This document shows, in pieces, positions 11,978 through 30,518 of a stretch of 64,000 nt of DNA. The DNA is from Desulfatiglans sp. GTDB lineage: Bacteria > Desulfobacterota > DSM-4660 > Desulfatiglandales > HGW-15. A program made the translations under genes and the position numbers. Position 1 is the first letter of the stretch. Each line of letters begins with the position of its first letter. The notes under the pieces are model-generated. The model was not told where the DNA came from, ran no database searches, and worked only from the letters and a program-made list of their open reading frames with translations. Where the stretch lies: the NCBI GenBank assembly GCA_012513605.1, contig JAAZBV010000156.1:91270-155269 (forward strand). The letters run 5' to 3'.

Positions 11978-12377
11978 ATGCCACCTCCTTACATAAGAAA
12001 CCTTTCTTTGAGGGAGCGCTGCTGTATATCAAATCCTCACATTAAAACCTGTCTTGTGAAAAAAGCCCGTTCCATTTTTAATGAACAGGTACATACAACT
12101 CTTTAATAACTTTGCAACCCCGCTGTCATATCCCTTTACATCATGGGACTTAGACCGGAAGTTTTGCGCCCTCTCCTTTCAGAGAGTTTGCCCTCAAGTC
12201 TTATCCAATCTTCAAATCGGCATCATGATCCTGAAACTTTAAAAAAATTTTTATTTTATTAAAAACAACTATATCAAGATGTTATCTATATGAAATACCA
12301 GACCTTTCCTGTTGACTAGCATATAATAAAAAGGCAGAATCAATGCGACTTAAAAAATAATTACACTGGAGCGGAAG

Positions 12378-20237: not shown

Positions 20238-20891
20238 ATGTTTTTTCTATTTCAGTACAGTAAAGCGGGTCTTCCAGGTGGTTTAATCAACCTTCATCAG
20301 TCACTTCTTGAAAGTATAACCTCATATTTTGAAAAAGGTGAATCAGTTAAAACAAGGGTAAGGGAGATTAGAAAGTCACTCAGAGATGCAATAACTTTTG
20401 CAAAGAAAAAGAGAATATATCCCAGCAGCAAGACAAACCGGGCAGCTGAACTTATGGAAGAGATGTATGAAGAGCTTGAACTGACCCATAAGATACTTAA
20501 AGAGGCAGCCATTGAAATGGAAAACATGATTAACAAGATAAAGGAAGAAAGGGTTATTAATGTCCACTCGATTATTACCGAGGCCCAGGAATATTTTAAG
20601 ATAAAAGAGGTTGATGCCGGGATACAGCTCCTTGAAAAGGCACAGAAGGAACTAAAAGAAAAACTGCTTGTGAAAACAAGAAAGAAGGTTTTCGCAGGTT
20701 ATAACAGTGAGCTAAAAAAATTAAAACATGAATTTGCTCAAAGGGAATGGACAGAAAGAAAGAATAAGAGCTCTAAATTTTTCAGCTTGTGCATACCCTA
20801 TGAAAATTACTCTACCTATAAACTTATCAGGAATATAATCGACGGCTTTACACGTTTAAAGAGCTCATTTGCATTTGACAGGGCAGAATAG
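20238..20891 (+). CDS. hypothetical coiled-coil protein
   Basis: 217 aa, Lys/Glu-rich with heptad-like stretches. AGGAGCGAAG lies upstream. No family recognised. Confidence 0.5.
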   Translation: MFFLFQYSKAGLPGGLINLHQSLLESITSYFEKGESVKTRVREIRKSLRDAITFAKKKRIYPSSKTNRAAELMEEMYEELELTHKILKEAAIEMENMINKIKEERVINVHSIITEAQEYFKIKEVDAGIQLLEKAQKELKEKLLVKTRKKVFAGYNSELKKLKHEFAQREWTERKNKSSKFFSLCIPYENYSTYKLIRNIIDGFTRLKSSFAFDRAE

Positions 20892-21126: not shown

Positions 21127-22926
21127 TTATGCATCTTTATTCAATAATACCGCTCTTATTTTTTGTAATGCAGACAAGGAAAAGATAAGGGGATAAAGTT
21201 TTTCATGATACCATAGCCTTGCAAAATAAAGGCCTATAGGGCTTGAAGGCAGTTTGTCATGGTTATTAATCATTTCAAGCAATGCTTCTGATCCTTTTAA
21301 AAGTGCCTTTTGAACTGGCGCGGCTAAATTATCAAAGAAACCATGAAGAGCCGCACAGCCTGCAATGGCATCAAGGGCAAGGGAGGTCTCCTCAATTGTG
21401 GCAGGCGCATTCTTATCTCCTCCCCATGTGCCATTTTCTTTTTGTGCCTCAATCAGCCATTTAAGTCCGCTCTTAAGCGATTCTTTCATGGTTGAAAGTT
21501 CAGTGGATTTCATACGGGTTAAATGAGAAATTACCTTTGCTGTCCCATAAACAGGGTTCTTCATATCGTGAACATCTTCGTTACCAAACCACAAAGGTAC
21601 CCATGAACCATCAGGCCGCTGAGCATTTCGTAAAAACAGGAAACCCTTTTCCATGGCAGAGTTAATACTATTTTGCAGTTCAGGCCTCATATCAGGCATC
21701 CATGCGGAACATGCTGCAAGTGCATGGGCGGTAAGGTCTGTAGCGCTTTTATCAAAGGGTAATTTACCCCAGCCTTTGCAGAATGTGGGTATGCCTCCAT
21801 CACGGTTCTGCAGATTAATAAGCCAGAGGATGGCCGCCTCAACCGCATCAAGGGGCTTTTCGCCATCCGGGTCAAGATTCTTTATGGCCATAAGGGCTCC
21901 TGAAGTATCATCCGCATCAGGCACGCCCCCTGGGAGATCAGTCCATGCCCAGCCTCCGGGGTCTGCCCCGGTATACGGGTGAATCTCCCTGTGCTGCTGG
22001 CCTATAAGCCATGTAAAAATGAGGTTTTGCTGAGTTTTACTTATATTATCATTCTTTAACGCCTGTACAGCCATTGTGGAAACCCAGGTTGATAGATTTG
22101 TATCTATCGGCCAGCTTCCGTCTGTTCGCTGGCTGTGAAGCAAAAAATTAACCCCTTTTTTTGTAACAATGTGTTCCCTGTGTCCGCAGTTTGCAAGGCT
22201 CATCAGAACAAAGCTTGTCAAAGGAGTGGCCTCCAGAAAACCTCCATTTTCAGGCTGGATTTTTGTCAGGACTTTAAGGGATTTTGTACGTGCCAGTTTA
22301 CGGGCTATCTTTTGAACCGGGTTAACAGGGGGATGATGATGAAATACGACCTGCCCGATTGCGATAAGGGCGGGAAGGGCGTAGCTTACAACCGGCAGCT
22401 TAAGCCATTTGAACCACTGCTGGGGCAGGACAGCCAGTTCAAATGGGAGACCCTTAACATGTTTCCAGCCCTCCTTACCCAGTCTGCCCGCAAGGGCACA
22501 CATGGTGAGAATAGGGCATGAAAATGTCCTGTCAGCTCCATAGGCCGTTAAGATTGATCCGGCAATCTTTTCCGGATCAATAGAACCTGCGATACCTTTT
22601 ATATATTTTTCACAGGCATCAAGGGCCTCCTGATCCGGTGAGGTAACTGTCATGGCGCAGTAAACAAGAAGGGTAGTGCTGAGGTTGCTCTTGCTTATTG
22701 CTGTATCGCCCCATCCACCATCAGGACTCTGATTTTTTATGAGCCAGTTTATGCCGGAGTTAATAGATGAAGCATGTTGATTTTCATCCACAGAAGCCAG
22801 CGCAAAAACAGCAGTTGCAGTGGAAAGGGCACTGCTGCTTAACTCACCGGTCCAGTAACCTTTGTCATTAGTTTCCGTGTGTAGCATCTGCTGCAATCTG
22901 TTAATAGTAGATTCAATCTCTTTCAT
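21127..22926 (-). CDS. squalene-hopene-cyclase-like class II terpene cyclase
   Basis: 599 aa with the N-terminal GYWTGEL. QW-type repeats are QSPDGGWG, QRTDGSWP, QNRDGGIP, QRPDGSWV and QKENGTWG. The protonation motif GGWAWTDLPGGVPDADDTS (D-A-D-D is encoded at 21907-21918) parallels the SHC DxDDTA motif. Confidence 0.8.
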   Translation of the reverse strand: MKEIESTINRLQQMLHTETNDKGYWTGELSSSALSTATAVFALASVDENQHASSINSGINWLIKNQSPDGGWGDTAISKSNLSTTLLVYCAMTVTSPDQEALDACEKYIKGIAGSIDPEKIAGSILTAYGADRTFSCPILTMCALAGRLGKEGWKHVKGLPFELAVLPQQWFKWLKLPVVSYALPALIAIGQVVFHHHPPVNPVQKIARKLARTKSLKVLTKIQPENGGFLEATPLTSFVLMSLANCGHREHIVTKKGVNFLLHSQRTDGSWPIDTNLSTWVSTMAVQALKNDNISKTQQNLIFTWLIGQQHREIHPYTGADPGGWAWTDLPGGVPDADDTSGALMAIKNLDPDGEKPLDAVEAAILWLINLQNRDGGIPTFCKGWGKLPFDKSATDLTAHALAACSAWMPDMRPELQNSINSAMEKGFLFLRNAQRPDGSWVPLWFGNEDVHDMKNPVYGTAKVISHLTRMKSTELSTMKESLKSGLKWLIEAQKENGTWGGDKNAPATIEETSLALDAIAGCAALHGFFDNLAAPVQKALLKGSEALLEMINNHDKLPSSPIGLYFARLWYHEKLYPLIFSLSALQKIRAVLLNKDA

Positions 22927-23828
22927 GGAATCTCCGCAAGATAGCCAAGGGCGAGGAGCCCGTAATAGGTGTACTCACAGTCAATAACAGGGTCTGCCCA
23001 TGTCCCGCTGAAGCCGCCCTCTGGGTTCCAGAGCGTGTCAAGAAACTCAAGGTGGCCCTCCCTAATGATCTTATTTTCAGGGAAGTAGGAAATGGCCTGA
23101 AGGGCAGTGGCAGTGCTTAAGAGATCAGGCAGATTCATTGGGCTGTCACTCTTAAAGGCGCAGAAGCCCCCCCTCTCACTTGCCCTGCCCATAAGCCATT
23201 CAGCCCCCCTTTCAGGTAAAGGCCTCCCAAGCATATGATATGAGCATATGGCCGCGGCTGTTGAGGGGGTGGTTGATATGCCCCCTGCCTGTTCATTGGC
23301 AAAGCCGCCGTCATCCATTTCAAGTTTATCAAGGCAGTTTAAAATTGCATCAGGGTCAGGAGGCGCAACACCCATATCCTCGCACATGGTAAGGGCCATA
23401 AAACAGCCATAGGCATTACCATGCGCATCTGACTGATTAGCGCTGAAACTGCCATCCGCACATCTGAGTTCTACAAGCCTTTGGGTAAGCCCCTCCTTTA
23501 GACCGGAATCAATAGTAAAGGATGATATGTCAGCCAGATTTGTATATGAGCGGGCAAGGCATGAAAGATGAACCAGGTCAAGCCCATGCCCGCTCTCAAA
23601 GCCAGCCAGATATCTTTTTATAAGATCAACAGGGAGGGAGAGCTCAAGGCTGATGGCCAGTTCAATGCCAAATACGGTATAGTAAAGGTCGCTCTTATTA
23701 TCGCGGCCCATGAATCCGCCATCGTGGTCCAGATGCCTCAATACAAAACCGCTGACAAGCCCTGTGGATTTATCCAGCAGCAGAGGCGCCCTGCCCAGGG
23801 CCTGTATCATCTCCTGTCTGAGTGTCAT
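22923..23828 (-). CDS. prenyltransferase/squalene-oxidase-repeat protein (single alpha/alpha toroid)
   Basis: 301 aa with five evenly spaced repeats: HDGGFMG, ADGSFSA, DDGGFAN, ERGGFCA and PEGGFSG. These resemble prenyltransferase beta subunits. ATGA overlap with the downstream cyclase gene. Confidence 0.7.
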   Translation of the reverse strand: MTLRQEMIQALGRAPLLLDKSTGLVSGFVLRHLDHDGGFMGRDNKSDLYYTVFGIELAISLELSLPVDLIKRYLAGFESGHGLDLVHLSCLARSYTNLADISSFTIDSGLKEGLTQRLVELRCADGSFSANQSDAHGNAYGCFMALTMCEDMGVAPPDPDAILNCLDKLEMDDGGFANEQAGGISTTPSTAAAICSYHMLGRPLPERGAEWLMGRASERGGFCAFKSDSPMNLPDLLSTATALQAISYFPENKIIREGHLEFLDTLWNPEGGFSGTWADPVIDCEYTYYGLLALGYLAEIP

Positions 23829-25479
23829 TGCAGCATCCCATTAAATCAAAGTCGCCAAATATCTTGCTGATCACGCGGCGCAAAAGCCCCTTAAGTGCAG
23901 GGTTATTAAGCTGCGCCAGGCTCTCAATTGCCCTTGCCTTTGTGCTATCCATCAATGCCCGCGCACATTGATCAATATTAAGATCGCTGAAGATCTCCAT
24001 GATATGATCAAACTCTCTCTCCCTTACGCCTGGCTCCTGCCATGCCCTTAAGAGCAGTTGACGCGCCTCCTCTTTTGCCTGTTCTGTTGCAAGGGCCATG
24101 AGTATGCTAGGGTTGTCAAGCAGGCGGCGCCTCTTTTCATGGGGGAGAAGGTAATCCTCCAGGTCATCCCTGATCTGGTAGGCTACACCCATTGCCTCGC
24201 TGTATTGATGAAGGCAGGCCAGCACAGAACTGTCCGCCCCTGCAAGGAGCGCCCCAAGGGAGAGCGCAACATCAAAGGCAGGGGATGTCTTTCTCCTGAA
24301 TATCTCGATCACCTGATTGGATGTGAGAGATTCAGGATGCCTTGACCAGTAGAGCTCCTCACCCTGCCCAAGGCACATGATGCGATGCGCATGGGCAGCA
24401 CATTCAATCAGAGAGGCCTTCACCTGCGCAGCCACATCCAACTCTGAGAGGAGCTGATATCCCCAGCCAATAAGTAGATCCCCTGCATTAAGCGCAACAG
24501 GGATGCCATATCTTGCATGAAGGGTCTCCTGCCCGTATCGAATATCATCATTATCCTCTATATCATCATGGATAAGAGATGCCTTGTGAAAGCATTCCAC
24601 TGCGACACATATACGCCTGATATTATTGTCGGAGATGTTATTGCCCGGTGTCAGGGCTGTAAATGTGCATGACGCAAGAAAGGGACGCCATCTTTTCCCT
24701 GACAGGGCAATCCAATCCATTGCAATGGCCTCTGTCTGCGTGCCTTCGGGCCTGATAACCTCATCAAGCTCCTCCTTTGAAAACCAGGAATCAACACGGT
24801 TTCTCTCCTCTTCAAGGTTCAGCCGCGGGATTGAGGGGTTTTCAGATGTTTCATACAATGCCTCCCATAGCCAGTCTGTATCAATAGCTGTGTTTTCACA
24901 CCCGTCATAGAGCAGGGGGATAGCTATACCGGGTACAGCGCCTGCCTCCATGTATGGAAAGACCCTTTCAAGTGTGGAGAGGCAGCTTACACCCAGAATT
25001 GCCTCAATCTGGCGTGTCTCTATCAGGCTCATTACAACCGGCGAACCCTCTGCAATGAGCACCGCATACCCCAGCTCCTCTGCCTGCCTTTTAAGGTCAT
25101 TTATTATGCATGATCCGCAGTGGGCGCAGATGAGCCCGATCTCATCCATAATGCCCCTGCACTTTTCCGCTGAACGCAGACACTTTGGTACCAACAGCAG
25201 GCGCCTGTTATAGGGGATGGCAGTAAAGATATCATGCCACAGGGTATTATTGATGAGCACAGCTACAAAACCCCTGAACCTTGCGGGCCATTTATACTGG
25301 TTCAGTAATATTTCTGCATGTCTCTCAAGTTCAGCAATACCAAGAGGCGCACAGAGAGAGTTTGACTCAGCATAATCCCTGACTATCCGGCGCAGCTCTT
25401 CCCTTTCCCTAAGGGTGCAGGGGATATCCGCCTGGGGCGGACGGGCATTATATATCAATGCAAGGTTAAGGTCGCTCAT
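23770..25479 (-). CDS. DUF116-like Cys-rich domain fused to a trans-polyprenyl diphosphate synthase
   Basis: 569 aa. The N-terminal half has LLLVPKCLRSAEKCRG...GLICAHCGSC...LIAEGSPVV...ILGVSCLSTL, a DUF116-like pattern recalled from memory. The C-terminal half has GKRWRP, first Asp-rich motif LIHDDIEDNDDIRYG (DDIED at 24553-24567), and second motif QIRDDLEDY. Confidence 0.75.
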   Translation of the reverse strand: MSDLNLALIYNARPPQADIPCTLREREELRRIVRDYAESNSLCAPLGIAELERHAEILLNQYKWPARFRGFVAVLINNTLWHDIFTAIPYNRRLLLVPKCLRSAEKCRGIMDEIGLICAHCGSCIINDLKRQAEELGYAVLIAEGSPVVMSLIETRQIEAILGVSCLSTLERVFPYMEAGAVPGIAIPLLYDGCENTAIDTDWLWEALYETSENPSIPRLNLEEERNRVDSWFSKEELDEVIRPEGTQTEAIAMDWIALSGKRWRPFLASCTFTALTPGNNISDNNIRRICVAVECFHKASLIHDDIEDNDDIRYGQETLHARYGIPVALNAGDLLIGWGYQLLSELDVAAQVKASLIECAAHAHRIMCLGQGEELYWSRHPESLTSNQVIEIFRRKTSPAFDVALSLGALLAGADSSVLACLHQYSEAMGVAYQIRDDLEDYLLPHEKRRRLLDNPSILMALATEQAKEEARQLLLRAWQEPGVREREFDHIMEIFSDLNIDQCARALMDSTKARAIESLAQLNNPALKGLLRRVISKIFGDFDLMGCCNDTQTGDDTGPGQGASAAG

Positions 25480-27047
25480 CTCTTTTTCTCCGTTGCGCTG
25501 TACGCGGAAATCGTTGCTGACCCTGATAATCTCTTTGACATGCCCCGAAAGGTCATGCGCCAGTTAAAGATCTCTGCCCTGCCCATCACCTGCATTATCA
25601 TACGTTTAAGCCAGGGCACACCTCCTGCCTGCTGGTTGTCCCACATGAGTTTGGGGACACGTTTAAAATTGATCTCATAACAGGTGCGATAGAGTTCAAA
25701 ATGGCTCATGCTCATACTCGAAACAGAAAAACCGCCACCTGCCCTGATATCCTTTTCAAGCACAGGCTCATAGAATACAGGGAAGACAACAAGCTCCTGA
25801 GAGGAGAGCTCTTTAATGAGACTGAGGGTATCTATCACATCCTTAGGCTCCTCACCGGGCAGGCCCAGGACAATGCTGATTACCGGGAAGAACCCGGAGC
25901 GGGTCATCCTGCCTACTGCCTCCCTTATAATGTCAGGCCAGTCTTCAGATGAAAATGGCGCAATCTTACCGGGGCTGTTGGCAGCAACAAGCCTTCCATT
26001 GGCGCTTTCAGCCCCCATGTTTACCCATAGGTATTTTGCCGGTTTTTCCCAGGTCAATAGCCGCCGGATCTCCACAAGCTCCTTTTCCTCAAGATCAATA
26101 ACGCTTGTGATATTGGCGTGATCTATCTGCATGAATGATAGCCCTTTAAGCCCTCTCATCTGTTCAAGGAGGGATGCAAGCCTTTTAAAATCAGGCCTTG
26201 TTGTGGATGAGCCATACCTGAAAAAATCTTCGCTCCCGCTCACCACATTTTTTATTCCATTGGAAAGGTTTGTCTCGAGGTCTGCCATGATCATATCAGG
26301 GGAAAGGTGTTTCATCCCCTTCTGGGCCATGCTGCAAAACCTGCATCCCCTTCCGCATCCCCTTGAAAGCTCAATAATACCCATCATTGAGGGGCCACAA
26401 ATGGGCTGAACGCGCTCGATGCCAATCCCATTTACAGCAACATAATTATCTACATGCCTGCCCGCTAAAATGTCAGCAATAAGCTCAGGGCCAGATTCTT
26501 CGAAATAGCCCTCATATACCACATCAATGCCAAGACGGGCCGCTTCATCCGGGCTGGTTATAAATTGCCATGCGCCTGCCCCTCCGAACACCACCTTGAA
26601 GGGGTATTTTTTTTTGGCAGCCTTGAGCATGAGGAGCGTCTCTCTTGTCCATCTCCTGGTATAGAGTTCCCCTCCCCAGAAGCTGCTTGTGGTGGTATTG
26701 CTCATGCCATGACCAAGAGGGTCGCTGGAGCTGAAGAGCACAAGCTTTACCCATGGCCCAATAAGGTCAAAAAGCCGCTCAGGTGTGGTGCAGACTATAT
26801 CATCAGGAGAGAGACCTGATGCGGCCCTCATGCATGATTCAATGCGGCGCAGCCCCAGGGGAGCAACAGAGGCCCTGCCATTTTCATCAGTATGCACCTT
26901 TGGGCTTAGAAAATATCTCATAAGGGGTTCAGGCACCTTGCTTGTCTGCATGGTTGCAAAGATGCCCTCAAACAATACTGGGTAATTGGCGCTTAGTGTG
27001 CGGTCAGCCACCAGTATAACGGCAGGTCTTAAGAAGTTATTTTTCAT
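25476..27047 (-). CDS. radical SAM protein with N-terminal B12-binding-like domain (class-B-like)
   Basis: The track ORF runs to 27119. ATG 27047 (MKNNFLRPAVILVADR...) has a GGAGATCAGG RBS. The N-terminal VILVADR...APLGL layout resembles B12-domain rSAMs. The Fe-S triad is CGRGCRFC (26334-26357). Confidence 0.75.
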   Translation of the reverse strand: MKNNFLRPAVILVADRTLSANYPVLFEGIFATMQTSKVPEPLMRYFLSPKVHTDENGRASVAPLGLRRIESCMRAASGLSPDDIVCTTPERLFDLIGPWVKLVLFSSSDPLGHGMSNTTTSSFWGGELYTRRWTRETLLMLKAAKKKYPFKVVFGGAGAWQFITSPDEAARLGIDVVYEGYFEESGPELIADILAGRHVDNYVAVNGIGIERVQPICGPSMMGIIELSRGCGRGCRFCSMAQKGMKHLSPDMIMADLETNLSNGIKNVVSGSEDFFRYGSSTTRPDFKRLASLLEQMRGLKGLSFMQIDHANITSVIDLEEKELVEIRRLLTWEKPAKYLWVNMGAESANGRLVAANSPGKIAPFSSEDWPDIIREAVGRMTRSGFFPVISIVLGLPGEEPKDVIDTLSLIKELSSQELVVFPVFYEPVLEKDIRAGGGFSVSSMSMSHFELYRTCYEINFKRVPKLMWDNQQAGGVPWLKRMIMQVMGRAEIFNWRMTFRGMSKRLSGSATISAYSATEKKR

Positions 27048-27936
27048 CCTGATCTCCGGCCTTAAAGGCCCTTTTTTGTATCCGGGACAGGTCTGATGGT
27101 GAGAGTCCTTCCAGCACACTCATCGGGATATCAAGCCTTTTGTGAAGCGCCTCCAGCATATTAACCGGCTTGCGCGGCTCAGCGGAAAAGAGCCCGCCCT
27201 GCCTGCCGCGGTTTCTCAGCATGGAGTGGATGTCTGTTCCATTCAGAAGATCCAGCCTTACAGGAGGTGCCTGGATTTTTGATTCATCTATTTCGTCACC
27301 ATTAAATGGTGGCTGATTCAGTTTAGGAAATATAATGGCCCTGCCAGGGCATATACGGGCGCATGCGGCACAGTTGTTTTTACAGTTGTCAGGGTGGGAA
27401 ACCCTGATATTGGCCTCTTCATCAATGGTGTAGACACCAAAAAGACAGAAATTAAAACAGAGTTTACATTTCTGGCAGCGGCCCCGATCAATTACCGGGA
27501 ACCATGGCTCCTGTAAACCGCTGAATGCTATCTTCTCAGGAGTGCCTCCTGAACCTCCTGTTACCTCACTTGTGACCCTTGACATGATCTCTTCAGGAGG
27601 CATGACCCGCGGGTTGAGGATTATGATTTGACTGCCGGGTGAAGACTCTGCCTCTGCCATGCTGAACAGGGCCTGTATGGCCCTCTCATAACAGGCAATA
27701 ACAATAAGTTTACTGTATTGCACCCACGCCTTTAACAGCGGGTCATTATGCGAGACAAGCCCGCACAGGTCATCAACAATAACCGCATCATGGCCATGTT
27801 GTTCAAGACTTTTAAGCAGCATATCACGGGATTCATCAGAGACCAAATCCCTGTGGGTACATTTGCAGTAAACTATCATATTATTTTCAGCCATATAACT
27901 TCCAAAAATATTAAGCTGTTTTTTTGTCTGTTTCAT
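27037..27936 (-). CDS. 4Fe-4S dicluster domain protein (ferredoxin-like)
   Basis: 299 aa with Cys motifs CQKCKLCFNFC and CKNNCAACARICP and an extra Cys-containing N-terminal domain. An alternative start MAENN at 27894 has GGAAG upstream. The stop overlaps the rSAM start by 11 nt. Confidence 0.7.
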   Translation of the reverse strand: MKQTKKQLNIFGSYMAENNMIVYCKCTHRDLVSDESRDMLLKSLEQHGHDAVIVDDLCGLVSHNDPLLKAWVQYSKLIVIACYERAIQALFSMAEAESSPGSQIIILNPRVMPPEEIMSRVTSEVTGGSGGTPEKIAFSGLQEPWFPVIDRGRCQKCKLCFNFCLFGVYTIDEEANIRVSHPDNCKNNCAACARICPGRAIIFPKLNQPPFNGDEIDESKIQAPPVRLDLLNGTDIHSMLRNRGRQGGLFSAEPRKPVNMLEALHKRLDIPMSVLEGLSPSDLSRIQKRAFKAGDQDEK

Positions 27937-28421
27937 AAAATAATTAAGACATTACCTTGAGCCTTGCGCCATTAATTATCTAAATATTCAATGTGGAAAC
28001 ACAACTGATGCGCAGCATGTAATGCTCAAATATAAACATGATATATTTTAATGCATTATATAGCCAATTAAAGGATAGTCAATCTATGTTGATGCCTATC
28101 CCTTGAATCCTGTTTATTCCCATATCCTTTCTCTCACTATTAGACTTTTGACTCTCTTTCTTTCTCTCCTCTTTTCCCCCCTTGCTTTTTTAAATAGTTC
28201 ATCTTAAACCCAGCTTTTTTATTAGTTTGGGTGCAATGTATTATTGTATCTTTTCAATCTCGGGGAGTTAACTTATAATTGTTTATGGTTCATGCATTTG
28301 TGTATTAAAAAGATGAAAACGGGTATGATGTATACCTTCACCGCCCGGAAGAGCCATGCCGGAAATTTTTTGGGGCTCCAAAGGCCAAGGCTAATGATGA
28401 TTAAATATAAGGAGAACTATT

Positions 28422-30518
28422 ATGGCGACACCAGGGTTTGGAGGAAAGTTACTCTTAGTTAATCTTACCAATAAACAGATAACTGCACTGGACACAGAAA
28501 AATATGAGCAGTTCGGCGGCGGGCATGGAATGGCCACTGCACTTTTCTGGGATTATTGTGTGGCGCCCGGAGACTGGGATCTGCAGGATGCCTTTCACCC
28601 GAAAAACATGGTTGCCCTTGTAACCGGCCCGGTAAGCGGGACAGGAGTGCCGTGGGCAGCAAGGACAAGTGTTTCAGGGTTGTCACCGCAGTGTTATCCC
28701 ATACAGTGGTTCGGTCATAGCAATTTCGGCGGCATGTTCGGGGCCTTTATGAAAATGGCCGGCTGGGATGGTGTTGCGGTCATTGGCAGGGCAGAATCCC
28801 CTGTCTATATCAATGTGGTAGATGACAGGGTCACCATTGAAGATGCTAAAGAGCTCTGGGGTTTAACCACATGGGAGTGCCAGGAGGAGATATGGAAGAG
28901 ATCCGGCATCAGGTATGGTAAGGAGTGGCAGGGGGTTGAAGAGAGGTATACACTACAGAGACCTGCTATAGTAACCATAGGCCCTGCTGGCGAAAACATG
29001 ACCAGGGTAGCATCACTTGTCCACGGAGGCGGAAGCGGTGCAGGGCAGGGAGGTTTCGGCGGGGTATTTGGCTCCAAAAATCTCAAGGCAATCGCCTTTC
29101 TTGGAACAAAGGGGATAAAGATAGCTGATCCAAAAGTATTGCTGGATGTAAGAGACTGGTATTACCAGAATTGGCCGGCAGGGGCACCCCCTTTTGCAGG
29201 GCAGGGTGTATCATCAGCGTGTATTGGCTGCGGACAGGTAAGAAAGTGTCATAACCGGGACAGGATTCATGGCAAGGATTCGGATGGTTGCGCTGAGGCA
29301 GGATGGTTCTACCTTACACCCCAGGATGCAAATGGGATGGACGATGCAACAAAGTTCAGGATAAACGCTAAAGGCACTGACATAGTCCAGCAGCTTGGTA
29401 TAAACGGCATGGAAACCTGTTTCATGGGCCCCCTGACATTTAAAACTGATCATAATCCCGATTTTCCAATTCAGCCGGAGGTGCCCGCCTATACGGCCCT
29501 TGGCTGGTACATGAAGAGGATGTATGACATGGGTGTTATAGGCCCAGGCACAAAATATGATACTGCCCCTCTGAATTTTAAAAAGTTTGCCACTCAGGAG
29601 TTCATGGAGATCTACGGCATTGCCCTGGCAAACCGTTATGGAATAGGTGACCTGTTGGCCGAGGGAACCGCGCGCATGGCGGATATACTTGGACGAAAGG
29701 ATGATTTTAATACACTTGCCAGACTTACCAACTGGGGTTATGTGGATCACTGGTCCATGCCCGGAGTAGACTGGGCCTATGGTAACCTGATGGATTCAAG
29801 GGACATCAACAGCCATGATATAGACCTGGCAAACCCTGCTGTAGGTCTGATGGGTTTTGGGGGCGGCGGCAACAGCAAATGGTCATGCGAGGAGTTTGTA
29901 AAGATCCATGCAGAGCGAACCACGCGCAACAACCCCTACTGGTTTGATTTCAGCTGGGAGGGTAAACAGGCACATGATACCGGTGTCTTTTCAAGGCACA
30001 AGGCGGAATTTGTCGCATGGCGCATGCATTACTGGACCTATTACAAGGAATCTGTCGGATTCTGTGACTGGGGTTATACAAAGCTCTTTGATGCAAACCA
30101 CCCGAAAGGCTATGGCTATACCCCTGAGGCTGAACCTCGCTGGCTAAACGCAATCACCGGAAGAAAACACACCTTTGAGGATGGGCTTGAAATGGGAAGA
30201 CGCGCCTGGAATCTGAAACGTGCAATCTTTGCCCTTCAGGGCAGGCACAGAAAGATGGAAAAATTTAACGGTTACATGTACAGACCCGGGGCGTCCTATT
30301 GCGGATTTTACAACACGAAGCCAATATACGATGGAAAAAACTGGGAATGGAAGGACTGCAAGGAGCTTTACCTGACTGAAGAGGGTGTGGAAAAGTGGAA
30401 GAGCTATTTCTATGAGATAGAAGGCTGGGACAAGGATTCGGGATATCCGAAGAGGAAAACCCTGGAAAAGCTTGGTCTGAAATATGCTGCTGATCTGCTT
30501 TCTAAAAAACTTGTTTAA
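28422..30518 (+). CDS. aldehyde:ferredoxin oxidoreductase (AOR) family tungsten/molybdopterin protein
   Basis: 698 aa with an AOR-type N-terminus GKLLLVNLTNKQI...FGGGHGMA and large C-terminal domains. Cys cluster CIGCGQVRKC. RBS AAGGAGAA. Confidence 0.7.
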   Translation: MATPGFGGKLLLVNLTNKQITALDTEKYEQFGGGHGMATALFWDYCVAPGDWDLQDAFHPKNMVALVTGPVSGTGVPWAARTSVSGLSPQCYPIQWFGHSNFGGMFGAFMKMAGWDGVAVIGRAESPVYINVVDDRVTIEDAKELWGLTTWECQEEIWKRSGIRYGKEWQGVEERYTLQRPAIVTIGPAGENMTRVASLVHGGGSGAGQGGFGGVFGSKNLKAIAFLGTKGIKIADPKVLLDVRDWYYQNWPAGAPPFAGQGVSSACIGCGQVRKCHNRDRIHGKDSDGCAEAGWFYLTPQDANGMDDATKFRINAKGTDIVQQLGINGMETCFMGPLTFKTDHNPDFPIQPEVPAYTALGWYMKRMYDMGVIGPGTKYDTAPLNFKKFATQEFMEIYGIALANRYGIGDLLAEGTARMADILGRKDDFNTLARLTNWGYVDHWSMPGVDWAYGNLMDSRDINSHDIDLANPAVGLMGFGGGGNSKWSCEEFVKIHAERTTRNNPYWFDFSWEGKQAHDTGVFSRHKAEFVAWRMHYWTYYKESVGFCDWGYTKLFDANHPKGYGYTPEAEPRWLNAITGRKHTFEDGLEMGRRAWNLKRAIFALQGRHRKMEKFNGYMYRPGASYCGFYNTKPIYDGKNWEWKDCKELYLTEEGVEKWKSYFYEIEGWDKDSGYPKRKTLEKLGLKYAADLLSKKLV

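What the first reader, a model, noticed from the sequence alone, without database searches (positions are those of the whole stretch)
23770..25479. Fusion of a Cys-rich DUF116-like domain to a trans-polyprenyl diphosphate synthase with small residues before the first Asp-rich motif
Residues ~60-210 carry the pattern LLLVPKCL..C...GLICAHCGSC...AEGSP...GVSCL, which I recall as DUF116, a family of unknown function. Residues ~235-540 are a complete polyprenyl synthase with GKRWRP, DDIEDNDDIRYG and DDLED.

The positions -5 and -4 before the first DDxxD are Ala and Ser (CFHKASLIHDD). In characterised enzymes, bulky aromatics at these positions cap the product at C15. Small residues there are typical of C20 or longer products.

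A physical fusion would give DUF116 a functional context in isoprenoid metabolism. The ORF also overlaps the next gene by 59 nt, which is unusual.
Basis: partly seen in the sequence, partly recalled or inferred. Interest (0 to 1): 0.6.

Follow-up and report, generated by a model that had tools for sequence, protein, structure and literature searches.

The report
Conserved DUF116–prenyl synthase fusion protein
This is a real, widely conserved bacterial protein that joins a seven-cysteine domain of unknown function to an enzyme that builds isoprenoid chains. It sits in a five-gene operon with a radical-SAM enzyme and an uncharacterised cyclase, which points to an unknown cyclic-lipid pathway, although the fusion itself was already on record.

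Summary
ORF 23770-25479 (-) encodes 569 aa with Pfam DUF116 (residues 72-207, E 3e-31) and polyprenyl_synt (253-494, E 2e-42). Ala300 and Ser301 sit at positions -5 and -4 before DDIED. The ORF overlaps the next gene by 59 nt.

It is not a frameshift artefact. More than 120 full-length homologues were found, and 586 confirmed places in a one-genome-per-species collection, across at least seven phylum-level groups. The AlphaFold2 model is confident for both domains (pTM 0.84).

It is not a new discovery. The identical protein is NLD39582.1 (Desulfatiglans MAG), and Makarova et al. 2015 already noted DUF116-polyprenyl synthetase fusions.

What I add is context.
- The gene is the centre of a translationally coupled operon: ferredoxin-like protein, radical SAM enzyme, fusion, 301-aa alpha/alpha-toroid protein, and a 599-aa class II cyclase with DxDD.
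- That cyclase fits the uncharacterised "SHC-like" clade.
- All seven DUF116 cysteines are invariant.
- The synthase has RYG instead of RRG.
- In this subfamily a conserved cysteine sits in a disordered C-terminal tail, and its motif changes with the type of radical SAM neighbour.

Most likely role: a dedicated prenyl-diphosphate supplier with a built-in Fe-S redox module, in a squalene-independent terpenoid pathway. Chain length and DUF116 chemistry remain untested.

The parts
23770..25479 (-). Fusion ORF, 569 aa: N-terminal helical extension, DUF116, conserved linker, trans-prenyl diphosphate synthase, disordered Cys tail
   Evidence: identical to NLD39582.1
25216..25479 (-). Residues 1-88: family-specific N-terminal extension. 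Three helices precede the alpha/beta core and there is a conserved 'RPPQxNIPxT' stretch. It overlaps the start of the Pfam DUF116 match.
24859..25266 (-). DUF116 domain (residues 72-207). Predicted four-stranded parallel beta/alpha (flavodoxin-like) core. Seven invariant cysteines: C100, C107, C118, C121, C124, C166, C194.
25108..25128 (-). CxxCxxC motif (C118-C124) of the DUF116 domain
23998..24723 (-). polyprenyl_synt domain (Pfam residues 253-494; helices continue to residue 541 in the model)
24553..24582 (-). Ala300-Ser301 (positions -5 and -4) plus the first Asp-rich motif DDIED (305-309). There is no insertion in the motif.
24532..24540 (-). RYG (314-316) where canonical enzymes have RRG. 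Tyr in 87% of 100 cluster representatives, Arg in 2%.
24154..24168 (-). Second Asp-rich motif DDLED (438-442). The loop after it is 6 residues shorter than in P. horikoshii GGPPS and lacks the 'GKP' lysine.
23824..23841 (-). MGCCND (547-552): conserved Cys motif at the start of the disordered C-terminal tail. Cys550 is kept in both the 'GCC' and 'GWC' subtypes.
23770..23828 (-). 59-nt dual-coding overlap: the fusion tail (one frame) and codons 1-20 of the next gene (another frame)
22923..23828 (-). 301-aa single alpha/alpha-toroid protein (called PT301 in this report; Prenyltrans repeats). It has 'PDLLSTA' where cyclases have DxDDTA.
21127..22926 (-). 599-aa class II terpene cyclase homologue (the 'SHC-like' protein). 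The DADD motif is at residues 337-340 (21907-21918).
25476..27119 (-). Radical SAM enzyme with an N-terminal Rossmann-type domain (best NCBIfam match is a B12-binding/rSAM family, below its cut-off). CX3CX2C is at residues 255-262 (26334-26357). The true start is probably Met25 (27047).
27037..27936 (-). Ferredoxin-like protein: an N-terminal domain with four Cys, then two 4Fe-4S-type motifs (C154-C164 and C185-C196)
28055..28082 (-). Best sigma-70-like promoter match (11 of 12 positions) upstream of the first operon gene. This is a consensus match only.

Best explanation
The ORF encodes a genuine two-domain enzyme at the centre of a five-gene, translationally coupled operon: ferredoxin-like protein, radical SAM enzyme, DUF116-prenyl synthase, toroid protein, DxDD class II cyclase.

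The C-terminal domain is an active all-trans prenyl diphosphate synthase of the archaeal/eukaryote-like short-to-medium chain type. It makes a dedicated head-to-tail polyprenyl diphosphate, probably C20 or longer.

That product goes to the cyclase pair encoded immediately downstream, giving a cyclic terpenoid that does not derive from squalene.

The N-terminal DUF116 domain is a flavodoxin-like alpha/beta domain whose seven invariant cysteines hold one or two Fe-S clusters. It acts as a built-in redox module. Together with the operon's ferredoxin-like protein it feeds electrons to the radical SAM enzyme encoded immediately upstream, which tailors the prenyl chain held by or released from the synthase.

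Shown:
- the domain architecture
- conservation of the cysteines and the catalytic motifs
- conservation of the operon

Inferred:
- metal content of DUF116
- direction of electron flow
- synthase activity and chain length
- substrate of the cyclase and of the radical SAM enzyme
For: Architecture:
- Both Pfam domains score above their cut-offs.
- More than 120 full-length homologues carry both domains.
- 586 confirmed places were found in the species-genome collection.
- The AlphaFold2 full-length model has pLDDT 85.6 and pTM 0.84, and the linker is conserved.

Cysteines:
- All seven DUF116 cysteines are 100% conserved in 100 representatives of 50%-identity clusters.
- The predicted core is a four-stranded beta/alpha fold.
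- This agrees with the published prediction of a metal-binding, flavodoxin-like, electron-transfer domain (PMC5898192).

Synthase:
- GKRxRP, DDxxD, KT, Q and the second DDxxD are 85-100% conserved.
- The closest sequence and fold neighbours are GGPP, hexaprenyl and octaprenyl synthases, with TM-score 0.78-0.86 normalised by target.

Operon:
- Among loci with enough flank, the ferredoxin-like gene lies upstream in 43 of 53.
- A radical SAM gene lies upstream in 40 of 53.
- The toroid protein lies downstream in 45 of 69.
- The cyclase lies downstream in 32 of 69.
- Gene junctions overlap by 4-59 nt.
- The cyclase DxDD motif is conserved.

Literature:
- The 'SHC-like' clade of PVC bacteria and Acidobacteria is sister to polyprenyl cyclases and has no known substrate.
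- Its genomic context was said to suggest precursors other than squalene (PMC12414744 and PMC7306690).
Against: - No experiment exists on any member of the family.
- The DUF116 domain has no solved or significantly similar structure, so Fe-S binding rests on the cysteine pattern alone.
- The operon already encodes a ferredoxin-like protein, so a second electron carrier is not obviously needed.
- The synthase departs from the canon (RYG instead of RRG, shortened loop after the second Asp-rich motif). It might not be a simple chain elongator.
- The cyclase is found within 6 kb downstream in only about half of the loci, so the tightest partners are the ferredoxin-like and radical SAM genes, not the cyclase.
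- Standalone archaeal DUF116 genes have non-isoprenoid neighbours.
Confidence: 0.42

Rival explanations
1. DUF116 is itself a catalytic Fe-S domain acting on the isoprenoid. For example, it could reductively remove or rearrange the allylic diphosphate made in the neighbouring active site (IspH-like chemistry), giving a hydrocarbon or reduced chain for the cyclase. The ferredoxin-like protein would be its electron donor.
For: - The tight fusion has a conserved linker and a confident inter-domain model.
- The seven cysteines are invariant.
- A ferredoxin-like gene is the most constant neighbour, in 43 of 53 loci.
- A DUF116 gene lies beside IspH, a hopene cyclase and a polyprenyl synthetase gene in a Bipolaricaulota cluster (bioRxiv 10.1101/2025.11.21.689855).
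Against: - There is no similarity to IspH, IspG or any known Fe-S enzyme.
- Class II cyclases can use diphosphate substrates directly, so no reductive step is required.
- The archaeal DUF116 context is unrelated to isoprenoids.
Confidence: 0.15
2. The fusion protein is also a scaffold or substrate. The conserved cysteine on its disordered C-terminal tail would be modified by the adjacent radical SAM enzyme, or prenylated by the toroid protein. It would then serve as a swinging arm (thiol, persulfide or covalent prenyl carrier) between active sites.
For: - Cys550 is invariant in the close family, in a tail with pLDDT below 50.
- The motif persists where the downstream gene does not overlap or is absent, so it is not a by-product of the embedded start codon.
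- The 'GCC' tails go with the 520-aa radical SAM type in 14 of 14 loci. The 'GWC' tails go with a 400-aa NirJ/PqqE-like type in 25 of 25 loci.
- Relatives of both radical SAM types include protein- or peptide-modifying enzymes.
- The radical SAM stop codon overlaps the fusion's start codon.
Against: - The GWC group is monophyletic in a tree of the two domains, so the correlation can be one evolutionary event.
- In a MAFFT alignment of 100 full-length cluster representatives, about 70% show gaps at the tail columns. That alignment may be unreliable at the C-terminal end.
- By a by-eye alignment from memory, the toroid protein lacks the zinc ligands of protein prenyltransferases.
- No precedent is known to me.
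Confidence: 0.12
3. DUF116 is a structural or regulatory metal domain (a zinc or Fe-S redox, oxygen or iron sensor). It tunes or stabilises the synthase and takes no part in the chemistry of the pathway.
For: - Cysteine-rich domains often bind zinc.
- No catalytic or electron-transfer homologue was found.
- The operon has its own ferredoxin-like protein.
Against: - Seven cysteines are invariant, including a CxxCxxC motif, in a flavodoxin-like fold.
- The domain is constantly associated with Fe-S partners.
- Standalone members neighbour redox enzymes.
Confidence: 0.15
4. The synthase domain is not a chain-elongating enzyme. It would be a prenyl-transferring or terpene-synthase-like catalyst that uses a non-IPP acceptor or a modified extender unit.
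For: - RYG replaces RRG in 87% of representatives, with Arg in 2%. From memory, the second Arg contacts the IPP diphosphate in farnesyl diphosphate synthases.
- The loop after the second Asp-rich motif is 6 residues shorter than in 1WY0 and lacks its GKP lysine.
- All NCBIfam synthase models score far below their cut-offs.
- Prenyl-synthase-fold enzymes deposited as 'prenyltransferase Ord1' appear among the fold neighbours.
Against: GKRxRP, His before the first Asp-rich motif, KT, Q and both Asp-rich motifs are conserved as in true elongating synthases.
Confidence: 0.12
5. The ORF is an artefact: a frameshift or misassembly that joined two genes.
For: None found.
Against: - The same 560-570-aa architecture occurs at 45-72% identity in hundreds of independent assemblies.
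- The linker is conserved.
- The two-domain model is confident.
Confidence: 0.01

Closest known systems
Archaeal-type short-chain trans-prenyl diphosphate synthases (GGPP synthase of Pyrococcus horikoshii, PDB 1WY0; IdsA)
   Same: Same fold and catalytic motifs. It is the best sequence match (E 8e-36) and the best Foldseek hit by E-value (TM-score 0.78 normalised by target). The first Asp-rich motif has no insertion.
   Different: - Ala instead of Tyr/Phe at position -5.
- RYG instead of RRG.
- A loop 6 residues shorter after the second Asp-rich motif.
- An extra 250-residue N-terminal DUF116 module and a Cys tail.
- NCBIfam scores of 106-123 bits against cut-offs of 450-500.
Standalone DUF116 / COG1852 / arCOG02078 proteins (for example MMP0162 of Methanococcus maripaludis)
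   Same: Same Pfam family, with a cysteine set that includes CxxCxxC, a predicted flavodoxin-like fold and a predicted electron-transfer role.
   Different: The archaeal proteins have two N-terminal transmembrane helices and neighbour sulfite/nitrite reductase or ArsA-like genes. Here the domain has a soluble helical N-terminal extension and is fused to a prenyl synthase.
DUF116-polyprenyl synthetase fusions already noted (Psta_0175 of Pirellula staleyi; Makarova et al. 2015)
   Same: Same architecture. The window protein is one more member. It is deposited as NLD39582.1.
   Different: The paper contains only a one-line remark. It describes no operon, motifs or function.
Polyprenyl-based cyclic terpenoid pathways: sporulenol (HepS/HepT, YtpB, SqhC) and longestin (dedicated prenyl synthase, methyltransferase, cyclase Lon15)
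   Same: A dedicated prenyl synthase is encoded with a hopene-cyclase-family enzyme that cyclises head-to-tail chains rather than squalene (PMC7306690 and PMC12414744). The longestin gene roles are from memory.
   Different: Those clusters have no Fe-S domain on the synthase, no radical SAM or ferredoxin partners and no 301-aa toroid partner. They occur in different taxa (Bacillota and Actinomycetes).
'SHC-like' clade of class II cyclases (Santana-Molina 2020; Mol Biol Evol 2025)
   Same: The downstream 599-aa cyclase fits the description: about 600 aa, found in PVC bacteria and Acidobacteriota, catalytic Asp motif kept, and not a true hopene cyclase.
   Different: I inferred membership from length, taxa and scores, not from a phylogeny. 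The clade has no known substrate, so it does not supply a function.

Membership tests
Pfam PF01976 (DUF116) | Match to the family model above the gathering score | tested here: met
   108 bits against a cut-off of 25; residues 72-207 match model positions 20-154 of 155
Pfam PF01976 (DUF116) | Conserved cysteine set that includes CxxCxxC | tested here: met
   C100, C107, C118, C121, C124, C166 and C194 are invariant in 112 close homologues and in 100 cluster representatives. The family feature is as described in PMC5898192.
Pfam PF01976 (DUF116) | Two N-terminal transmembrane helices (archaeal members) | tested here: not met
   The Pfam match starts at model position 20. Residues 1-88 are predicted as soluble helices. 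No transmembrane predictor was run.
trans-prenyl diphosphate synthases (PF00348) | Two Asp-rich motifs, GKRxRP, KT, and the conserved Q before the second motif | tested here: met
   All are present and 85-100% conserved. Pfam score 145 bits against a cut-off of 27.
trans-prenyl diphosphate synthases (PF00348) | RRG four residues after the first Asp-rich motif, and the Lys-bearing loop after the second | tested here: not met
   RYG: Tyr in 87%, Arg in 2%. There is a 6-residue gap opposite 'LGKPVG' of 1WY0.
trans-prenyl diphosphate synthases (PF00348) | Condensation of IPP with an allylic diphosphate; defined product length | not testable with these tools
   Needs an enzyme assay
Geranylgeranyl diphosphate synthase (NCBIfam NF041003, NF040698, NF045685) | Score at or above the curated equivalog cut-off | tested here: not met
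   106, 107 and 78 bits against cut-offs of 500, 468 and 460
Farnesyl diphosphate synthase | Aromatic residue at -4/-5 before the first Asp-rich motif | tested here: not met
   Ala300 and Ser301, 97-99% conserved
Squalene-hopene cyclase (neighbour gene, TIGR01507) | Score above the equivalog cut-off | tested here: not met
   109 bits against a cut-off of 431. It is nevertheless named squalene--hopene cyclase in NCBI.
Class II terpene cyclases (neighbour gene) | DxDD general-acid motif in a two-domain alpha/alpha-toroid protein | tested here: met
   DADD at residues 337-340, conserved in 40 homologues. The SQHop_cyclase_N and SQHop_cyclase_C domains are both present.
Protein prenyltransferase beta subunit (301-aa neighbour) | Zinc ligands (Asp, Cys, His) and an alpha-subunit partner | tested here: inconclusive
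   The profile hits Rab GGTase beta and FTase beta (E 2e-9 to 2e-7), no better than class II cyclases (E 3e-11). A by-eye alignment from memory puts Leu and Tyr at the Cys and His ligand positions. No alpha-subunit gene is in the operon.
Cobalamin-dependent (class B) radical SAM enzymes (upstream neighbour) | CX3CX2C plus a recognisable B12-binding domain | tested here: inconclusive
   CX3CX2C is present at residues 255-262. Pfam finds only Radical_SAM. The best NCBIfam match is TIGR04013 at 71 bits against a cut-off of 251.

The most novel reading that the evidence does not exclude
The operon encodes a so-far unknown, squalene-independent and radical-SAM-dependent route to a new class of cyclic polyprenoid lipids in anaerobic Desulfobacterota, PVC bacteria and Acidobacteriota. 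It would be the missing substrate pathway for the 'SHC-like' cyclase clade and a possible source of orphan biomarkers. In this route the prenyl synthase would carry its own Fe-S redox domain, and a C-terminal cysteine arm would tether or hand over intermediates between the radical SAM enzyme, the toroid protein and the cyclase.
Probability: 0.2. Interest if true: 0.8.

Novelty: new variant of a known kind. Interest (0 to 1): 0.5.

Why it matters
The architecture itself is already catalogued, so the value lies in the context.

The fusion is the hub of a conserved operon that includes a class II cyclase of the 'SHC-like' type. Specialists name the substrate of that clade as an open question that bears on the evolution of hopanoid and sterol cyclases and on the sources of fossil terpanes.

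The operon gives a concrete five-gene set to express and test. It also gives one DUF116 subfamily its first clear pathway context (isoprenoid metabolism coupled to Fe-S and radical SAM proteins).

If the product is a new cyclic lipid made without oxygen or squalene, it would interest lipid biochemists and organic geochemists.

Tried and rejected
1. Frameshift or assembly artefact: rejected.
2. Solved structure or known fold for DUF116:
   - The PDB sequence search with a family profile hit only the synthase half.
   - Foldseek of a domain-only model (pLDDT 83) against the PDB gave nothing below E 0.01. The weak top hits were B12-binding modules with TM-score about 0.25.
3. Hidden homology of DUF116 to the N-terminal domain of the radical SAM enzyme or of the ferredoxin-like protein: hhalign probabilities were below 1%.
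4. Other Pfam families in residues 1-215 at E up to 10: none.
5. Chain-length assignment from NCBIfam equivalogs: all were far below their cut-offs.
6. Tail motif versus radical SAM type as independent evidence of interaction: weakened, because the GWC group is a single clade.
7. The conserved tail motif as a mere by-product of the embedded start codon: rejected, because the motif persists where the next gene is distant or absent.
8. A riboswitch (B12 or SAM) ahead of the operon: none was found. The only Rfam hit in the window is elsewhere.
9. Literature:
   - Only two open-access papers mention DUF116 proper.
   - No paper was found on the operon.
   - The supplement of PMC7306690 that shows the SHC-like gene context is not held.
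10. Paralogues of the synthase or the cyclase elsewhere in the window: none.
Full report
**1. Observation**

The ORF at 23770-25479 on the minus strand is intact and encodes 569 residues. Pfam finds DUF116 at residues 72-207 (E 3.2e-31, 108 bits, cut-off 25). It finds polyprenyl_synt at residues 253-494 (E 2.4e-42, 145 bits, cut-off 27).

- LLLVPKC
- the CxxCxxC at 118-124
- GKRWRP at 261-266
- DDIEDNDDIRYG from 305
- DDLED at 438-442

Ala300 and Ser301 are positions -5 and -4 before Asp305. The next ORF (22923-23828) overlaps by 59 nt. Its ATG is embedded in the fusion's codons Asn551-Asp552 (AAT GAC).

**2. Artefact or real gene**

The gene is real.
- A search of 5.8 billion proteins returned more than 120 full-length proteins of 545-590 aa with both Pfam domains at 49-72% identity. 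Some lie on contigs of 4.1, 6.5 and 7.4 Mb.
They come from Desulfobacterota, Planctomycetota, Verrucomicrobiota, Acidobacteriota, Armatimonadota, Gemmatimonadota and Myxococcota.
- The linker between the domains is itself conserved.
- AlphaFold2 with 112 sequences gives mean pLDDT 85.6 and pTM 0.84. That points to a fixed two-domain arrangement.

**3. Is it new?**

It is not new as an observation.
- The identical protein is NLD39582.1, named 'DUF116 domain-containing protein [Desulfatiglans sp.]'. JGI calls it a geranylgeranyl pyrophosphate synthase.
- Makarova et al. 2015 described DUF116 (COG1852, arCOG02078) as a predicted metal-binding domain with a flavodoxin-like fold and an electron-transfer role. 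[quoted passage not shown]
- In the searchable literature only that paper and one 2025 preprint mention DUF116 proper. No function has been shown.

**4. How common is the fusion within DUF116?**

I searched the DUF116 segment alone (156 aa) against 1.84 billion representatives of 50%-identity clusters. It found 776 proteins at E<=1e-3, 472 at E<=1e-10 and 198 at E<=1e-30.

Of the best 150, 99 are at least 475 aa long, and 79 carry both the GKRxRP and DDxxD motifs by a simple pattern check. Most of the shorter ones look like fragments or frameshifted calls. As a rough estimate, the synthase-fused subfamily makes up about a quarter of the DUF116 diversity that this query can see. The rest was not inspected.

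**5. Anatomy of the DUF116 half**

- Seven cysteines (C100, C107, C118, C121, C124, C166, C194) are invariant in 112 close homologues. They are also invariant in 100 representatives of the wider fused family.
- The models predict three N-terminal helices followed by a four-stranded parallel beta/alpha core, with strands at 93-97, 139-142, 160-165 and 184-189.
- No PDB sequence matches this half.
- Foldseek of the domain-only model finds nothing below E 0.01. The weak top hits are cobalamin-binding modules, which have the same 'helical cap plus Rossmann' layout.
- hhalign finds no relation to the N-terminal domains of the two Fe-S neighbours.

Fe-S binding is therefore an inference from the cysteine pattern and the published prediction. 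It is not a result.

**6. Anatomy of the synthase half**

- The closest solved relatives are archaeal GGPP synthases (1WY0, E 8e-36; 5JFQ), then hexaprenyl and octaprenyl synthases. Fold similarity is TM-score 0.78-0.86 normalised by target.
- The catalytic set is conserved: K262 85%, R263 94%, R265 99%; D305, D306 and D309 99%; K397 98% and T398 97%; Q435 98%; D438 86%, D439 97% and D442 87%.

Three departures are family hallmarks:
- Ala300 and Ser301 at positions -5 and -4 (99% and 97%).
- RYG instead of RRG (Tyr 87%, Arg 2%).
- A loop after the second Asp-rich motif that is six residues shorter than in 1WY0 and lacks its 'GKP' lysine.

No NCBIfam chain-length-specific model comes near its cut-off.

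On chain length, the aromatic rule at -4/-5 excludes an FPP-synthase-type cap. From memory, however, the same 'ASLxxDDIED' context occurs in eukaryote-type C20 GGPP synthases and in the C40 synthase of Thermotoga maritima. Phe297 at position -8 (85% conserved) could also limit depth. I therefore regard C20 or longer as plausible and the exact length as open.

**7. C-terminal tail**

Residues 545-569 are predicted disordered (pLDDT below 50), yet the tail begins with a conserved motif. Two types occur among the 82 loci studied:
- 'MGCC(N/D)D', as in this window
- 'KGWC(S/K)E(F/Q)E'

One cysteine is common to both. The motif persists where the downstream gene is more than 1 kb away or is not found within the locus (L014, L017, L045-L049). 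It is therefore not merely a consequence of the embedded start codon.

The tail type goes with the type of radical SAM neighbour: GCC with the 520-aa type in 14 of 14 loci, and GWC with a 400-aa type in 25 of 25. In a neighbour-joining tree of the two domains the GWC group is a single clade. This correlation may therefore record one event and carries little independent weight.

In a MAFFT alignment of 100 full-length cluster representatives, about 70% show gaps at the tail columns. That alignment may be unreliable at the C-terminal end.

**8. The operon**

On the minus strand of the window the genes run in this order:

| Coordinates | Product |
|---|---|
| 27936-27037 | ferredoxin-like protein (two 4Fe-4S motifs plus an N-terminal domain with four Cys) |
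| 27119-25476 | radical SAM enzyme, CX3CX2C at residues 255-262 |
| 25479-23770 | the fusion |
| 23828-22923 | 301-aa alpha/alpha-toroid protein (PT301) |
| 22926-21127 | 599-aa cyclase homologue |

The junctions overlap by about 11 nt (if the radical SAM gene starts at Met25), then 4, 59 and 4 nt. The best promoter-like match lies just upstream of the first gene.

The same five genes in the same order occur at 60-70% identity in a 7.4-Mb genome and at 37-60% identity in a Sedimentisphaerales MAG.

Across non-redundant loci with at least 3.5 kb of flank on the relevant side (53 upstream, 69 downstream):

| Neighbour | Position | Loci |
|---|---|---|
| ferredoxin-like gene | upstream | 43 of 53 |
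| radical SAM gene (15 of the window's type, 25 of a 400-aa NirJ/PqqE-like type) | upstream | 40 of 53 |
| toroid gene | downstream | 45 of 69 |
| cyclase | downstream | 32 of 69 |

The ferredoxin-like and radical SAM genes are thus the most constant partners. Two non-homologous radical SAM enzymes occupy the same slot.

**9. The downstream proteins**

The 599-aa protein has both hopene-cyclase Pfam domains and a DADD motif (337-340) that is conserved in 40 homologues. It scores only 109 bits against the hopene-cyclase equivalog, whose cut-off is 431. Its NCBI name 'squalene--hopene cyclase' is therefore an over-annotation.

Its length, its relatives in Planctomycetota and Acidobacteriota and its retained catalytic motif fit the 'SHC-like' clade. 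The literature describes that clade as follows:
- It is of unknown function.
- Its gene context suggests 'different precursors to squalene'.
- It shows unusual substitution density on the SHC-type dimer surface.

I did not test clade membership by phylogeny.

The 301-aa protein is a single toroid domain. It is equally distant from class II cyclases (E 3e-11) and from protein prenyltransferase beta subunits (E 2e-9 to 2e-7). It has 'PDLLSTA' where cyclases have the DxDDTA acid motif. It is therefore unlikely to be a proton-donating cyclase. It could be a partner subunit of the cyclase.

**10. The overlap**

The 59-nt overlap recurs exactly in 18 loci from Desulfobacterota, Planctomycetota, Acidobacteriota, Armatimonadota and Gemmatimonadota. 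Other loci overlap by 38, 44, 47, 26 or 4 nt.

The N-terminus of the toroid protein is conserved from Met1, so its start is real. In the window, the stop of the fusion is formed across codons 19/20 of the toroid gene (GAT AAA, read as T AA).

My reading of the recurring 59-nt length is that the second reading frame keeps the tail length constant while the tail sequence varies. The arrangement suggests translational coupling of the two proteins.

**11. Best explanation and rivals**

I think the protein is a dedicated prenyl diphosphate supplier with a built-in Fe-S redox module. It would work in a squalene-independent terpenoid pathway that includes radical SAM tailoring and class II cyclisation (confidence 0.42 for the whole chain of inference). 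I put my confidence much higher, about 0.85, for 'genuine fusion, active isoprenoid enzyme, terpenoid operon'.

The rivals are:
- a catalytic reductive role for DUF116 (0.15)
- a scaffold or swinging-arm role for the Cys tail (0.12)
- a structural or sensor role for DUF116 (0.15)
- a non-elongating synthase domain (0.12)
- an artefact (0.01)

These are not all mutually exclusive.

**12. Verdict**

However, the fusion is an already catalogued and widely distributed architecture, and the chain-length argument is weaker than stated.

The interest lies in the conserved operon, which links a domain of unknown function, two kinds of radical SAM enzyme and an enigmatic cyclase clade. That makes an acknowledged open question directly testable.

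Noticed in passing
window 12110-12202 (-): A c-di-GMP-I riboswitch aptamer (RF01051; 74 bits against a gathering score of 35; full-length match). It is unrelated to the operon.
   Followed up: no
window 21127-30518: The operon (GC 0.49) and the divergently transcribed aldehyde:ferredoxin oxidoreductase gene at 28422-30518 (GC 0.50) form a GC-rich island. The flanks are at 0.41-0.43, which may indicate acquisition by transfer. An AFOR gene also lies about 8 kb downstream of the homologous operon in L001 and L002.
   Followed up: partly
window 25476-27119 (-): The listed GTG start of the radical SAM ORF is probably too far upstream. Starting at Met25 (27047) gives an 11-nt overlap with the ferredoxin-like gene, as in the homologous locus L001. 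NCBI also starts the ferredoxin-like protein 14 residues later (285 aa).
   Followed up: partly
window 21127-22926 (-): The public annotation 'squalene--hopene cyclase' (NLD39580.1) is not supported. TIGR01507 scores 109 bits against a cut-off of 431.
   Followed up: yes
L023 5491-7061 and 8438-9628: In the 'GWC' branch of the family, a 400-aa NirJ/PqqE-like radical SAM enzyme takes the place of the window's 520-aa type. A GcvH-like protein (lipoyl-lysine retained) and a CobW/COG0523-like GTPase often lie further upstream (23 and 22 of 82 loci).
   Followed up: partly
L001 6244-7518 and 15252-18084; L004 2185-6162: Genes for PQQ-like beta-propeller proteins recur near the operon (18 of 82 loci). 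Their meaning is unknown.
   Followed up: no
P0163, P0170, P0196, P0200, P0225 and others: A more divergent set of DUF116-synthase fusions (about 525-530 aa) lacks the C-terminal cysteine tail and has variant GKRxRP motifs. Their gene context could not be examined.
   Followed up: no
window 20238-20891 (+): A 217-aa ORF just downstream of the operon, on the opposite strand, has no Pfam match.
   Followed up: no
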